Virus record (IMG/VR): IMGVR_UViG_3300021399_000127
Location: 33,691 to 97,690 of that record
Length of the DNA: 64,000 nucleotides
Source: a virus
Taxonomy: Duplodnaviria; Caudoviricetes
Reading direction: 5' to 3' (one strand)
This document shows positions 50,423 through 61,111 of the stretch, piece after piece (position 1 is the first letter of the stretch; the number at the start of each line of letters is the position of its first letter). The position numbers were made by a program, and so were the translations under genes. The notes beneath the pieces were generated by a model. The model was given only the letters and a program-made list of their open reading frames with translations. It had not been told where the DNA came from and ran no database searches.

Positions 50423-50871
50423 ACTTTGAGTGTTTTTATTATGAATTCTGCTAATTTTGAATCAATTTTGTACCTTTTAGAGATTTCTTCTATTATTTCT
50501 TTTGTAGTTGCACCTCTGCTACGTAAATGAACACATGAATTTTGTATGTACAGGGTTTTTGTAGCAAAGAAATCATTCCAATCCGCAACAACTTTCCAAT
50601 AGTTAAAATCTTCTGTTCTGTCGTAGGTAAACAGCATTGTTAATCTTAAAACATCTTTAAACTTTGTTAATTTTGGATTTAACTTGTCTTTAAGTTGTTT
50701 TGAGATTAATTTAGCTTTTTCTTTTTTTGAGTGTACAGCACTCGTTCTATACGGACGTACTACGTTGTCATAGACGTATTCTATGAATCGATTACGACAC
50801 TTACACCAACGAATTGTCATATCCCACACTGGTGGAATACGATCAGAAATCATTTTCCTGTATCCGTTCAT
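50419..50871 (-). CDS. Hypothetical protein
   Basis: 150-aa ORF. Confidence 0.7.
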   Translation of the reverse strand: MNGYRKMISDRIPPVWDMTIRWCKCRNRFIEYVYDNVVRPYRTSAVHSKKEKAKLISKQLKDKLNPKLTKFKDVLRLTMLFTYDRTEDFNYWKVVADWNDFFATKTLYIQNSCVHLRSRGATTKEIIEEISKRYKIDSKLAEFIIKTLKV

Positions 50872-50929
50872 GTCTTTGCAGGTTTACACCCAAAGGGTGG
50901 GCACTTTCGCAGTTCCCGCGTGACTTAAA

Positions 50930-51260
50930 CCCCCGAAGGGGACCACTTACGCTACGTTAGTGTAGTCAACAATATTGTTAATATTGCCAGTTAATTGTTT
51001 TCGACCTAATAATGATGTACTCCACTGTGTAATCAAATCCAATTTACCCCCATTAAAAGCCCCCGAAGGGGCAAACGTATGCTTTACGAAAATAAGTACA
51101 TATGAAAATATAAATACACATTAACCAAAACTAAATTTATAGACACACTAATAGGTAATAAAATAGCATACGTTTTGGTGGAGGTAGAGCGATTCGAACG
51201 CTCGTCTTACACAGCTTTATAATCTAAAGGTCTTTAGGTCCTACATGCGCGGCCAAACGC
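50930..51260 (-). ncRNA. ssrA: Circularly permuted (two-piece) tmRNA; tag (A)GNINNIVDYTNVA*
   Basis: Acceptor piece ...CTGTGTAAGACGAGCGTTCGAATCGCTCTACCTCCACCA ends at 51176. Coding piece GGGGGTAAATTGGATTTGATTACACAG starts downstream at 51051. 7-bp acceptor with G3.U70; TTACACAG/CTGTGTAA helix; tag frame 50988-50947. Outer boundaries approximate. Confidence 0.85.
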
Positions 51261-51727
51261 ATATAGGCGAATTGATATTGTATTCAACAATCTATCAATA
51301 ATGTCTTCAGACGTCTCCTACAACAGTATTTATAAACTATTGTATACAAGATCAATCAGAGATTATATCGTGTTGAATAACGGCTTATAGCTCTTGTTAC
51401 GCACGTGATCGGTTCTTGAAAACATCATGAGGAAGCCACGGACCCAATTGTCAAACGTCAGACTTCCAGCCTCAAGGGTCGCATGATTCGAGTTTGATAT
51501 AAGCACATTTACACCTGTGTTGGTGGTTCCGCCAGTACTGGCTTATAGCTCTTGTACTTAGTGTTAATTCACTATTGTTGCATGCCCGACGGTACTATAG
51601 GTCTTTCATCCGAACTCAACCATGTCTAAGCATGCTCAATAACTGCATCAATGTGTCTGTATTGTTGGCTTGATGGATAACTAATATTCACCCTTTTTGA
51701 AATCAGCCATGAATGGCTCAACGGTGA

Positions 51728-60540: not shown

Positions 60541-60732
60541 TTAAATCTTGTGGCCGCAATACAGTCTGGCAGAGCCATCTGTGTTGGAGACAATCTCGTC
60601 TACATTGACTGTGTGGATACCACCCAAGATGATAGAAAGATTAGCAACTGTTTGAAAGATGCTTTGGTTCTCTGCAATTGTAGCCTGCTGGCGCTTGCCA
60701 GCATAGGTAACTGTAATTTGAATCTGTTTCAT
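60541..60732 (-). CDS. Small hypothetical early protein
   Basis: Start placed at MKQIQITV after an AT-rich leader and the promoter-like motif. Confidence 0.65.
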   Translation of the reverse strand: MKQIQITVTYAGKRQQATIAENQSIFQTVANLSIILGGIHTVNVDEIVSNTDGSARLYCGHKI

Positions 60733-60820
60733 AGCTAAATAGTTTAATAATGTCGTGGACCTGCAAAAGAACAGTTTGGTCCTACTAAAAAGAGCACAAG
60801 AGCCCGTTAGGGCTCTGTGC

Positions 60821-61111
60821 TTAGAATGGCAAATCGTCATCGCAGTAGTAGTCTAAGACTGGTGCGACAATTGGCTTGTTGAATAGATTTAAACCGTCAA
60901 AGTAGGCGTCATACGCCCGCTTAAACGTCAGACTAACTTGTACTGACTCGAAACCAACCGAGTCTAATCCGCCGCCTGAATCGTAGCATGGAACTTCTAC
61001 ATCCTCTTCGCATGTGAACATACATGTGTGTGGATTGTACTCTACGTGAGTGTAATGGAATGTTGTACGCAAGTTGTTTGCGAGTTGAGCGATAGTTGGA
61101 AACATAAGCAT
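60821..61111 (-). CDS. Small acidic early protein ending DDDLPF
   Basis: 96-aa ORF, first gene of the early block. Confidence 0.7.
   Translation of the reverse strand: MLMFPTIAQLANNLRTTFHYTHVEYNPHTCMFTCEEDVEVPCYDSGGGLDSVGFESVQVSLTFKRAYDAYFDGLNLFNKPIVAPVLDYYCDDDLPF

What the first reader, a model, noticed from the sequence alone, without database searches (positions are those of the whole stretch)
50930..51260. Phage-encoded circularly permuted two-piece tmRNA with a non-standard tag
Seen: the T-arm/acceptor/CCA end (51176) is transcribed before the GGGGGUA 5' acceptor strand (51051), separated by a 124-nt spacer containing an 11-bp inverted repeat and a UUCG hairpin. The G3.U70 alanine determinant, inter-piece helices and a resume context (TAACT-GGC) are present. 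The tag is GNINNIVDYTNVA*, not ending in LAA. Established: permuted tmRNAs are known mainly from alphaproteobacteria and some cyanobacterial and betaproteobacterial lineages, while Bacteroidota tmRNA is normally one-piece. Inference: an independent permutation in a phage, possibly rescuing ribosomes stalled at amber codons during the code switch or altering the fate of tagged proteins.
Basis: partly seen in the sequence, partly recalled or inferred. Interest (0 to 1): 0.85.

Follow-up and report, generated by a model that had tools for sequence, protein, structure and literature searches.

The report
Two-piece tmRNA gene of crAss-like phage
This gut crAss-like phage carries a real, conserved "back-to-front" gene for tmRNA, the RNA that frees stalled ribosomes, but sister phages already have the same gene labelled in public records, so it is a sound find and not a new one.

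Summary
On the minus strand there is a T-arm/acceptor/CCA end at 51176, a 124-nt spacer, G1 at 51051, and a tag ORF at 50988-50947. ARAGORN calls a permuted tmRNA, and Rfam tmRNA_permuted just reaches its threshold (47.1 vs 47 bits).

Across 38 distinct related phage copies the acceptor, T and P2 helices covary, G3.U70 never changes, and the tag peptide is under purifying selection.

The gene is not new:
- Six RefSeq Suoliviridae genomes annotate it as SsrA.
- A 2022 paper supplement lists about 13 crAss phages with "Permuted" tmRNAs.
- This scan has already flagged it in at least 48 genomes.

My tests add four points:
- It resembles Bacteroidota one-piece tmRNAs, not alphaproteobacterial two-piece ones. 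That favours a separate permutation in an ancestor of the phage family, not in this phage.
- It lacks about 30 nt where pseudoknot 1 should lie.
- The window's lineage has also lost the post-tag pseudoknot that its relatives keep.
- The link to amber recoding is weak. All 8 recoded relatives carry the gene, but so do 2 of 4 non-recoded Suoliviridae.

Function (trans-translation using host SmpB) is inferred.

The parts
51240..51267 (-). 5' hairpin at the start of the acceptor piece (11-bp stem, 6-nt loop)
   Evidence: Found by the MFE folds. Relatives have a hairpin of different sequence at the same place. The true 5' end was not determined.
51234..51240 (-). Acceptor-piece strand of the distal P2 helix, pairing with 51003-51009
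   Evidence: 7 complementary bases in the window. L040 and Dulem virus 42 have different but complementary 6-bp helices at the same position (read). An alternative partner at 50888-50895 is chosen by the MFE cofold, so the pairing is not settled.
51207..51214 (-). Acceptor-piece strand of helix P2a, pairing with 51025-51032
   Evidence: Modelled by Rfam. RNAalifold recovers it, and all 8 pairs carry several canonical pair types across 38 sequences.
51187..51206 (-). GAC linker plus T arm (5-bp stem, loop UUCGAAU); no intron in this copy
   Evidence: The T stem covaries, with at least 10 stem variants, all complementary.
51176..51186 (-). 3' acceptor strand (51180-51186), discriminator A (51179) and encoded CCA (51176-51178)
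   Evidence: In the parse of the tag-matched loci, CCA is encoded only in the window and L016; the window-like relatives L039 and L040 also encode it. Most other copies do not.
51052..51175 (-). 124-nt intervening spacer, expected to be removed from the precursor. It has an 11-bp closing stem (51165-51175 with 51073-51083) and a GC hairpin plus U-run (51059-51072) just 5' of G1.
   Evidence: Fold and terminator-like call. Spacer length ranges from 16 to 231 nt in relatives while the flanking helices stay complementary.
51033..51051 (-). 5' acceptor strand (51045-51051, G1 at 51051, G3 pairing with U70) and a D-loop-like segment with the UUUGA motif
   Evidence: G3.U70 is invariant in 38 of 38 sequences. 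UUUGA occurs in 31 of 32 phage copies and in 9 of 12 Bacteroidota tmRNAs with a GGC resume codon.
51025..51032 (-). Coding-piece strand of P2a
51003..51009 (-). Coding-piece strand of the distal P2 helix, 14 nt upstream of the resume codon
   Evidence: Complementary to 51234-51240. Equivalent helices in L040 and Dulem virus 42 have different sequences.
50947..50988 (-). Tag reading frame: resume codon GGC at 50986-50988, 13 codons, stop TAA at 50947-50949. The predicted added peptide is A-GNINNIVDYTNVA.
   Evidence: ARAGORN. The tag family is conserved in about 40 loci. In core codons 5-13 there are 36 synonymous versus 10 non-synonymous pairwise differences.
50970..50986 (-). Hairpin covering the first seven codons of the tag ORF (7-bp stem, loop AAC)
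   Evidence: Fold. On 11 relatives 92.3% of cells are paired, 2 pairs change on both sides, and 0 of 500 shuffles reach the observed covariation score. The sample is small and the sequences are related.
50887..50941 (-). Three post-tag hairpins (50930-50941, 50908-50920, 50887-50899) forming the 3' part of the coding piece.
   Evidence: Folds. Comparison with relatives that do have a covarying H-type pseudoknot at this place. The next ORF starts at 50871, so the RNA probably ends between 50872 and 50886. This end was not determined.

Best explanation
**What it is.** A functional, phage-encoded two-piece tmRNA gene. It belongs to a family that is ancestral to much of the crAss-like family Suoliviridae.

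**How it most likely works (steps inferred from known tmRNA and tRNA biology):**
1. The minus-strand, standard-code block is transcribed into a precursor that runs: acceptor piece, 124-nt spacer, coding piece.
2. Host tRNA-processing enzymes remove the spacer. RNase P cuts 5' of G1 at 51051, and the 3' end is trimmed back to the encoded CCA at 51176.
3. The two pieces stay together through the 7-bp acceptor stem and the P2 helices.
4. Host alanyl-tRNA synthetase charges the RNA through G3.U70.
5. Host SmpB (the phage encodes none) and EF-Tu deliver it to ribosomes stalled at mRNA 3' ends.
6. Translation resumes at GGC (50988) and adds A-GNINNIVDYTNVA, freeing the ribosome and marking the product.

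**Origin.** The RNA most likely derives from a Bacteroidota-type one-piece tmRNA. It lost the pseudoknot-1 region, and in the window's lineage it also lost the post-tag pseudoknot.

**Shown versus inferred.** Shown here: gene anatomy, conservation, covariation, selection on the tag peptide, absence of a phage smpB, and similarity to Bacteroidota. Inferred: processing, charging, SmpB use and tagging.
For: **Detection.** ARAGORN calls it permuted, and RF04321 reaches its gathering score.

**Conservation.** The permuted order with a near-identical tag occurs in 36 tag-matched IMG/VR contigs plus RefSeq and GenBank relatives.

**Covariation.** The acceptor, T and P2a helices covary across a spacer of 16-231 nt: 97.6% canonical against 79.5% shuffled, 17 of 24 pairs with double-sided change, and G3.U70 in 38 of 38 sequences.

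**Tag selection.** The tag codons vary mostly synonymously, 36 against 10 in the core.

**Partner protein.** The complete 97.7-kb genome holds no SmpB gene. Candidate host assemblies keep their own one-piece tmRNA.

**Origin.**
- The UUUGA D-loop occurs in 31 of 32 phage copies and 9 of 12 Bacteroidota tmRNAs with a GGC resume codon, against 0 of 24 alpha-permuted and 1 of 29 one-piece Pseudomonadota.
- GGC or GAC resume codons occur in 31 of 32 phage copies and 20 of 52 Bacteroidota, against 0 of 53 Pseudomonadota.
- Alignment scores on three collinear segments are highest to Bacteroidota and lowest to alpha-permuted tmRNAs.
Against: - There is no expression or processing data, and the ends are predicted only.
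- The Rfam score is marginal (47.1 against 47). True alphaproteobacterial two-piece tmRNAs score 113-162 bits.
- The G1-to-resume distance is 63 nt, against 80-102 nt in bacterial tmRNAs, so the PK1 region is missing. From my own knowledge, PK1 matters for tagging in E. coli.
- A terminator-like hairpin with a U-run sits directly 5' of G1 and could stop transcription before the coding piece.
- A hairpin covers the first codons of the tag and might hinder resumption.
- No Bacteroidota-type promoter motif was found upstream.
Confidence: 0.8

Rival explanations
1. **Recoding helper.** The tmRNA exists mainly to cope with the switch to TAG = sense. Once the phage suppressor tRNA(CUA) is made, ribosomes read through TAG-terminated host and early phage ORFs, run to mRNA 3' ends and stall. 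The phage then supplies extra rescue capacity.
For: - The phage is amber-recoded: 208 in-frame TAG in 32 late ORFs, with a tRNA(CUA) at genome position 1945-2019.
- 4 of 39 ORFs in the standard-code block end in TAG.
- All 8 TAG-recoded Crassvirales records tested carry the permuted tmRNA. It was not found in 8 non-recoded records from other families; a ninth, cr106_1, carries a one-piece tmRNA instead.
- From my own knowledge, suppressor tRNAs increase SsrA tagging in E. coli.
Against: - Non-recoded Suoliviridae cr10_1 (49.6 bits, intact tag) and cr118_1 (intact pieces, T arm split by an insertion) also carry it.
- Within Suoliviridae the count is 8 of 8 recoded against 2 of 4 non-recoded, which is not significant and is confounded by shared ancestry.
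- Many non-recoded phages carry tmRNAs, including mycobacteriophages and marine myophages (PMC4131195, PMC9004378).
Confidence: 0.15
2. **Decoy or competitor.** The RNA, or just its acceptor piece, mainly titrates host SmpB or competes with host tmRNA. It would then block or redirect host trans-translation without rescuing ribosomes for the phage.
For: - The phage has no SmpB gene.
- A terminator-like hairpin between the pieces could give an excess of the acceptor piece.
- A TLD-only tmRNA of mycobacteriophage DS6A is reported to inhibit tmRNA (PMC4131195, PMC11915505).
Against: - The tag ORF is conserved at the peptide level with mostly synonymous change.
- The resume context, P2 helices and coding piece are kept in every lineage.
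A pure decoy would have no need for any of these.
Confidence: 0.08
3. **Not an independent permutation.** The gene was acquired by horizontal transfer from one of the three known two-piece lineages (alpha- or betaproteobacterial, or cyanobacterial) and then diverged.
For: - The best lineage-specific Rfam match is beta_tmRNA, covering the whole model at E 8.5e-10.
- Marine phages do carry alpha-type two-piece tmRNAs (PMC9004378).
Against: - beta_tmRNA scores are 27-46 bits against a gathering score of 84. Any alpha, cyano or standard matches scored lower still.
- Alignment to 24 alpha-permuted tmRNAs is the worst of all groups.
- The UUUGA D-loop and GGC/GAC resume codons are Bacteroidota-type.
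- Beta and cyano sequences were not compared directly.
Confidence: 0.07
4. **Artefact or relic.** The call is an ARAGORN/Rfam false positive on a tRNA-like fragment, a mis-assembly that swapped the halves, or a decaying pseudogene.
For: The Rfam score is only marginal, and ARAGORN's permuted calls can be false positives.
Against: - The same order occurs in more than 40 independent contigs and records from different samples and hosts.
- Compensatory changes link the two halves across the spacer.
- The tag is under purifying selection.
- The genome is complete, with terminal repeats.
Confidence: 0.02

Closest known systems
tmRNA (SsrA) genes annotated in RefSeq crAss-like phages cr124_1, cr7_1, cr130_1, cr131_1, cr272_1 and cr273_1 (Suoliviridae, Oafivirinae)
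   Same: - Same permuted order.
- Same place in the genome, upstream of a sigma-factor-like gene.
- Same tag family: GNVNNIVDYTNVA in cr124_1 against GNINNIVDYTNVA here.
- Same UUUGA D-loop and short G1-to-resume distance.
   Different: - Only about 81-85% identical over 52-84 nt to the nearest records.
- This copy encodes CCA and has a terminator-like hairpin 5' of G1.
- It lacks the tRNA or tRNA-like minihelix that follows the coding piece in relatives.
- It has a plain hairpin where most Oafivirinae have a post-tag pseudoknot.
Two-piece (circularly permuted) tmRNAs of Alphaproteobacteria, a betaproteobacterial lineage and cyanobacteria (Rfam RF01849, RF01850, RF01851; merged model RF04321)
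   Same: - Acceptor piece encoded upstream of the coding piece.
- Spacer expected to be removed by tRNA-processing enzymes.
- Pieces held together by the acceptor stem and P2.
- G3.U70 and a tag ORF are present.
   Different: - RF04321 scores 37-74 bits in the phage family, against 113-162 bits in 30 alphaproteobacterial genes.
- The lineage-specific models are not reached.
- The G1-to-resume distance is 58-68 nt against 80-86 nt.
- The resume codon is GGC or GAC, not GCN.
- Sequence similarity is lowest to the alpha group.
One-piece tmRNA of Bacteroidota, e.g. Segatella copri (397 nt, tag GENNYALAA)
   Same: - UUUGA D-loop.
- GGC resume codon with a closely similar upstream context.
- Similar T arm.
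- Best alignment scores on three collinear segments.
   Different: - The gene order there is standard.
- It is about 150 nt longer, with PK1 and the later pseudoknots.
- Its tag ends in ALAA.
Two-piece tmRNA of marine myophages (Melnitz, pelagimyophages; PMC9004378) and one-piece tmRNAs of mycobacteriophages (PMC4131195)
   Same: Phage-encoded tmRNA without a phage SmpB. The proposed role is to sustain or redirect host translation.
   Different: The marine phage genes are of alphaproteobacterial type and sit behind a glutamine riboswitch. The mycobacteriophage genes are one-piece. Neither shares this tag family.

Membership tests
tmRNA (any form) | tRNA-like domain: 7-bp acceptor stem with G3.U70, T arm with a TPsiC-type loop, discriminator A and a CCA end | tested here: met
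   Sequence, Rfam alignment and ARAGORN. Covariation in 12 of 12 acceptor and T pairs or invariance; G3.U70 in 38 of 38 sequences.
tmRNA (any form) | Internal tag reading frame with a resume codon and a stop codon, conserved as a peptide | tested here: met
   Tag ORF at 50988-50947. The tag family is conserved across Suoliviridae. 36 synonymous against 10 non-synonymous differences in the core codons.
tmRNA (any form) | Pseudoknot PK1 between P2 and the resume codon, plus further pseudoknots after the ORF | tested here: not met
   The G1-to-resume distance is 63 nt, against 80-102 nt in 105 bacterial tmRNAs. No room or complementarity for PK1 was seen. The post-tag pseudoknot that covaries in relatives is replaced by a hairpin with a 3-nt loop in the window. 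Pseudoknots are typical of tmRNA but not universal.
tmRNA (any form) | Partner protein SmpB available | tested here: inconclusive
   No PF01668 match in the complete phage genome. The control genome Bacteroides thetaiotaomicron has SmpB. Use of host SmpB is inferred.
Permuted tmRNA, Rfam RF04321 | Score at or above the gathering threshold (47 bits) with full model coverage | tested here: met
   47.1 bits over model positions 1-213. This is marginal. Relatives score 37-74 bits.
Permuted tmRNA (gene form) | The 3' half of the tRNA-like domain is encoded upstream of the 5' half, and the two halves are complementary across an intervening sequence | tested here: met
   Order confirmed. Seven or more acceptor variants, all complementary, across spacers of 16-231 nt.
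Permuted tmRNA (gene form) | The precursor is cleaved into two mature RNAs | not testable with these tools
   No transcript data were available.
Alpha-, beta- or cyano-type two-piece tmRNA (RF01849, RF01850, RF01851) | Score at or above the lineage model's gathering threshold | tested here: not met
   beta_tmRNA scores 37.5 bits against 84. Overlapping clan matches scored lower still. Relatives score 27-46 bits.
Suoliviridae phage tmRNA family | Tag motif G/D-N-...-D/N-Y-T/S-x-hydrophobic-(x)-A, UUUGA D-loop, short G1-to-resume distance, and position upstream of a sigma-factor-like gene in the standard-code block | tested here: met

The most novel reading that the evidence does not exclude
The Suoliviridae tmRNAs are a fourth, independent origin of two-piece tmRNA. 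On this reading they were made from a Bacteroidota one-piece gene inside a phage lineage and then stripped of PK1, and in this window's lineage of every pseudoknot. That would make them the smallest tag-encoding tmRNAs. Their phage-specific tag (core D-Y-T) would give rescued proteins a fate different from host-tagged ones, and amber-recoded phages would keep the gene because read-through raises the load of non-stop ribosomes.
Probability: 0.3. Interest if true: 0.6.

Novelty: new member of a known kind. Interest (0 to 1): 0.35.

Why it matters
tmRNA is the main ribosome-rescue system of bacteria. A phage version that works without pseudoknot 1 and writes its own tag would show the minimum an active tmRNA needs, and how a virus can take over protein quality control. 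A fourth independent permutation would also show that the two-piece form arises readily. For annotation, these genes explain the "permuted" tmRNA calls that turn up in Bacteroidota metagenome bins.

This particular copy adds little that public records and this scan do not already hold.

Tried and rejected
- **blastn of the window region against phage records** found only two short matches. Wider sets had to come from tag patterns and from a flanking sigma-factor-like protein.
- **Loosening the tag pattern** added one locus only.
- **The supplements of the 2025 tmRNA database paper** hold no phage row, so the form of its 79 phage sequences could not be read.
- **The MFE cofold of the two pieces** recovers the acceptor stem but not the comparative P2a. 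It proposes another partner for 51232-51239. I kept the comparative model.
- **My regular-expression parse of the post-tag pseudoknot** was off by one base in several rows. The pseudoknot pairs quoted were read by eye from that output and, and were not scored formally.
- **A Bacteroidota -7 promoter motif (TAnnTTTG)** was not found in the 500 nt upstream.
- **The 203-aa ORF antisense in the L039 intron** looked HNH-like by eye but has no Pfam match, so I do not name it.
- **The weak RF04321 hit in cr118_1** first looked like a remnant. Inspection showed intact pieces with an insertion in the T arm.
- **Beta and cyanobacterial two-piece tmRNAs** could not be fetched for direct comparison.

Full report
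**Observation.** Reading the minus strand, the layout is:
- a T arm at 51187-51203
- a 3' acceptor strand at 51180-51186
- discriminator A at 51179
- an encoded CCA ending at 51176
- a 124-nt spacer at 51052-51175
- a 5' acceptor strand starting with G1 at 51051
- 63 nt further on, the resume codon GGC at 50988, followed by 13 codons and a stop at 50947.

ARAGORN calls a permuted tmRNA at 50856-51268 with the tag GNINNIVDYTNVA. Rfam's merged model RF04321 scores 47.1 bits against a gathering score of 47. The best lineage-specific model, beta_tmRNA, reaches only 37.5 of the 84 bits needed. The MFE fold of the precursor recovers the T arm, the acceptor stem, the 11-bp stem that closes the spacer, and the UUCG hairpin next to G1.

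**Genome context.** The window is bases 33691-97690 of a complete 97,690-bp phage genome with terminal repeats and no SmpB gene. The plus-strand late block is amber-recoded: ORFs of 5,908 and 2,692 aa open only when TAG is read as sense, there are 208 in-frame TAG in 32 late ORFs, and a tRNA(CUA) sits at genome position 1945-2019. TerL, portal and major head protein match crAss-type PHROGs. The tmRNA lies in the minus-strand, standard-code block, two genes upstream of a sigma-factor-like gene. The same arrangement is seen in cr124_1 and cr130_1.

**Is it real?** Yes. A tag-based scan of IMG/VR found 36 contigs, and ARAGORN calls a permuted tmRNA in most of them. RefSeq and GenBank relatives in four Oafivirinae genera and in three further Suoliviridae subfamilies have it too.

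Across 38 distinct sequences with the spacer removed, RNAalifold recovers P2a, the T stem and the acceptor stem. In those helices 97.6% of cells are canonical, against 79.5 +/- 0.7% after shuffling partner columns. 17 of 24 pairs change on both sides, and G3.U70 is invariant. The two acceptor strands stay complementary across spacers of 16 to 231 nt, which rules out an assembly artefact or a chance tRNA-like fragment.

The tag varies mostly at synonymous sites, with 36 synonymous against 10 non-synonymous differences in codons 5-13. The peptide, and not only the RNA, is therefore under selection.

**Is it new?** No.
- The homologous gene is annotated 'transfer-messenger RNA, SsrA' in RefSeq records of cr124_1, cr7_1, cr130_1, cr131_1, cr272_1 and cr273_1.
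- Table S1 of PMC9004378 lists about 13 'CrAssphage' genomes with ARAGORN 'Permuted' tmRNAs, without discussing them.
- The 2025 tmRNA database paper (PMC11915505) took in RefSeq viruses and counts 79 phage sequences. It still describes three permuted clades only.
- I found no paper that discusses tmRNA in Crassvirales or in recoded phages.
- Earlier notes of this scan report the same kind of gene in at least 48 other genomes.

**Origin.** The tag pattern also hits five GTDB 'bacterial' assemblies. Three of these hits lie on contigs of about 100 kb, the size of the phage genome, and two of those are in Segatella copri bins. Each of the five assemblies also has its own one-piece tmRNA; in S. 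copri it is 397 nt with the tag GENNYALAA.

I compared 32 phage copies with 52 Bacteroidota one-piece, 29 Pseudomonadota one-piece and 24 alphaproteobacterial two-piece tmRNAs:
- **UUUGA in place of UUCGA in the D-loop:** 31 of 32 phage copies, 9 of 12 Bacteroidota tmRNAs with a GGC resume codon, 2 of 40 other Bacteroidota, 1 of 29 Pseudomonadota, and 0 of 24 alpha two-piece genes.
- **GGC or GAC resume codons:** 31 of 32 phage copies and 20 of 52 Bacteroidota, against 0 of 53 Pseudomonadota.
- **Alignment scores on three collinear segments:** highest to Bacteroidota and lowest to the alpha two-piece group.

This supports a separate permutation of a Bacteroidota-type gene. Because the order is shared by Oafivirinae, Loutivirinae, Uncouvirinae and Boorivirinae, the event predates this phage. 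Beta and cyanobacterial two-piece genes were judged only through their Rfam models.

**Reduced structure.** The distance from G1 to the resume codon is 58-68 nt in the phage family (63 nt here). It is 89-102 nt in Bacteroidota, 86-95 nt in Pseudomonadota and 80-86 nt in alpha two-piece genes. The missing 25-35 nt correspond to PK1. What remains is P2a, a distal P2 helix whose sequence differs but stays complementary in the window, L040 and Dulem virus 42, and a 14-nt A-rich stretch before the resume codon.

After the stop codon, most Oafivirinae show an H-type pseudoknot. Its second stem differs between lineages yet stays complementary (five variants, read; not formally scored). In the window, L039 and L040 the first stem instead closes a 3- or 4-nt loop, so the pseudoknot cannot form. 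The window copy therefore seems to have no pseudoknot at all.

A hairpin over the first seven tag codons is kept in Oafivirinae with two compensatory pairs: 92.3% of cells are paired, and 0 of 500 shuffles reach the observed covariation score. That rests on 11 related sequences.

**End formation.**
- CCA is encoded in the window, L016, L039 and L040 but not in most relatives, which would need RNase Z and CCA addition.
- In most relatives the coding piece runs directly into a tRNA (tRNA-Leu in L039 and L040; tRNA-Met and tRNA-Leu follow after a gap in cr273_1) or into a tRNA-like acceptor/T minihelix that ARAGORN miscalls as tRNA-Cys. RNase P cleavage there would set the 3' end.
- The window has neither. 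Three hairpins are followed by the next ORF at 50871.
- The window lineage has a GC-rich hairpin plus a U-run directly 5' of G1. If this terminates transcription it would favour the acceptor piece. This remains unexplained.

**Link to recoding.** I scored 20 Crassvirales records for RF04321 and for in-frame stops in the portal homolog.
- All 8 records with 4-15 in-frame TAG carry the permuted tmRNA.
- Among the 11 records with a portal match and no in-frame TAG, cr10_1 has an intact gene. cr118_1 has intact pieces with an ORF-bearing insertion in the T arm. cr1_1, the Azobacteroides phage, four Steigviridae and two Intestiviridae have none. cr106_1 has a small one-piece tmRNA.
- The twentieth record, cr127_1 (Crevaviridae), gave no portal match and no tmRNA hit.

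Within Suoliviridae the count is 8 of 8 against 2 of 4. The gene is a family trait, retained in every recoded member sampled but not restricted to them. 4 of 39 standard-block ORFs here end in TAG. This stays a hypothesis.

**The tag.** Across the family the tag reads G/D-N, a variable stretch, then hydrophobic residues, D/N-Y-T/S, and an end in VA, AA or similar. From my own knowledge, SsrA variants ending in LVA are efficient degradation tags in E. coli, so an ending in VA need not mean escape from proteolysis. Whether the conserved D-Y-T core meets a host or a phage factor is unknown.

**Verdict.** This is a genuine, selected two-piece tmRNA gene that most likely works with host SmpB in trans-translation. 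It is a new member of an already annotated phage family. The family's build and apparent separate origin are undescribed in the papers I could search, but they have been seen repeatedly in this scan. The recoding-specific role is not supported as stated.

Noticed in passing
L029:7863-8210 and L039:1413-2300 (related phage contigs): A group I intron (RF00028, 87 and 80 bits) interrupts the T loop of the permuted tmRNA gene after its first U, with a U.G pair in P1 and a G as the last intron base. The two introns are homologous to each other. The L039 intron is about 800 nt and holds a 203-aa antisense ORF with no Pfam match. ARAGORN misses both genes. The window copy has no intron. Earlier notes of this scan already report this combination.
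   Followed up: partly
L192 (cr118_1, MT774379.1, around record 60700-60900): The coding piece and the 3' acceptor strand are intact (tag GNNVNFFDYTLKVA), but the T arm is split by an insertion carrying an ORF on the opposite strand. RF04321 scores only 21 bits as a result. Whether the insertion is a group I intron was not checked.
   Followed up: partly
L193:1579-1882 (cr106_1, NC_055871.1, Steigviridae): ARAGORN calls a small one-piece tmRNA (304 nt, tag DNTYRVAA) beside tRNA-Arg and tRNA-Ile in a crAss-like phage of another family that is not recoded. This would be a separate capture of tmRNA.
   Followed up: no
L045-L049 (GTDB assemblies; contigs CAVGQQ010000005.1, JAJWOH010000001.1, JAJXAL010000002.1 and others): Phage-genome-sized contigs (about 100 kb) carrying this tmRNA are binned into Segatella copri and other MAGs. 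This hints at the host. It probably also explains some of the 48 'permuted' tmRNA calls listed for Bacteroidota in the 2025 tmRNA database table, although that is an inference.
   Followed up: partly
window 51059-51072: A terminator-like GC hairpin plus a U-run lies 7 nt upstream of G1, between the two tmRNA pieces. L039 and L040 have a longer GC-rich stem plus a U-run at the same place, while cr124-like copies do not. Its effect on the ratio of the two pieces is unknown.
   Followed up: partly
window 50970-50986: A hairpin covers the first seven tag codons. In relatives, a synonymous Asn-codon change is matched by an Ile/Val change on the other strand, giving two compensatory pairs.
   Followed up: partly
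Genome 1945-2019 (outside the window) and window 30969-63547 (minus strand): The suppressor tRNA(CUA) heads the recoded late block. In the standard-code block, 4 of 39 ORFs end in TAG and would be read through once the suppressor is made.
   Followed up: partly
Records PP511876.1, NC_055902.1, MT774379.1 and NC_055889.1 (TerL region): The TerL match is split into two pieces spanning about 3.1 kb in four relatives. A LAGLIDADG-like domain protein is annotated inside the Dulem virus 42 copy. This suggests an intein or intron in the terminase gene.
   Followed up: no
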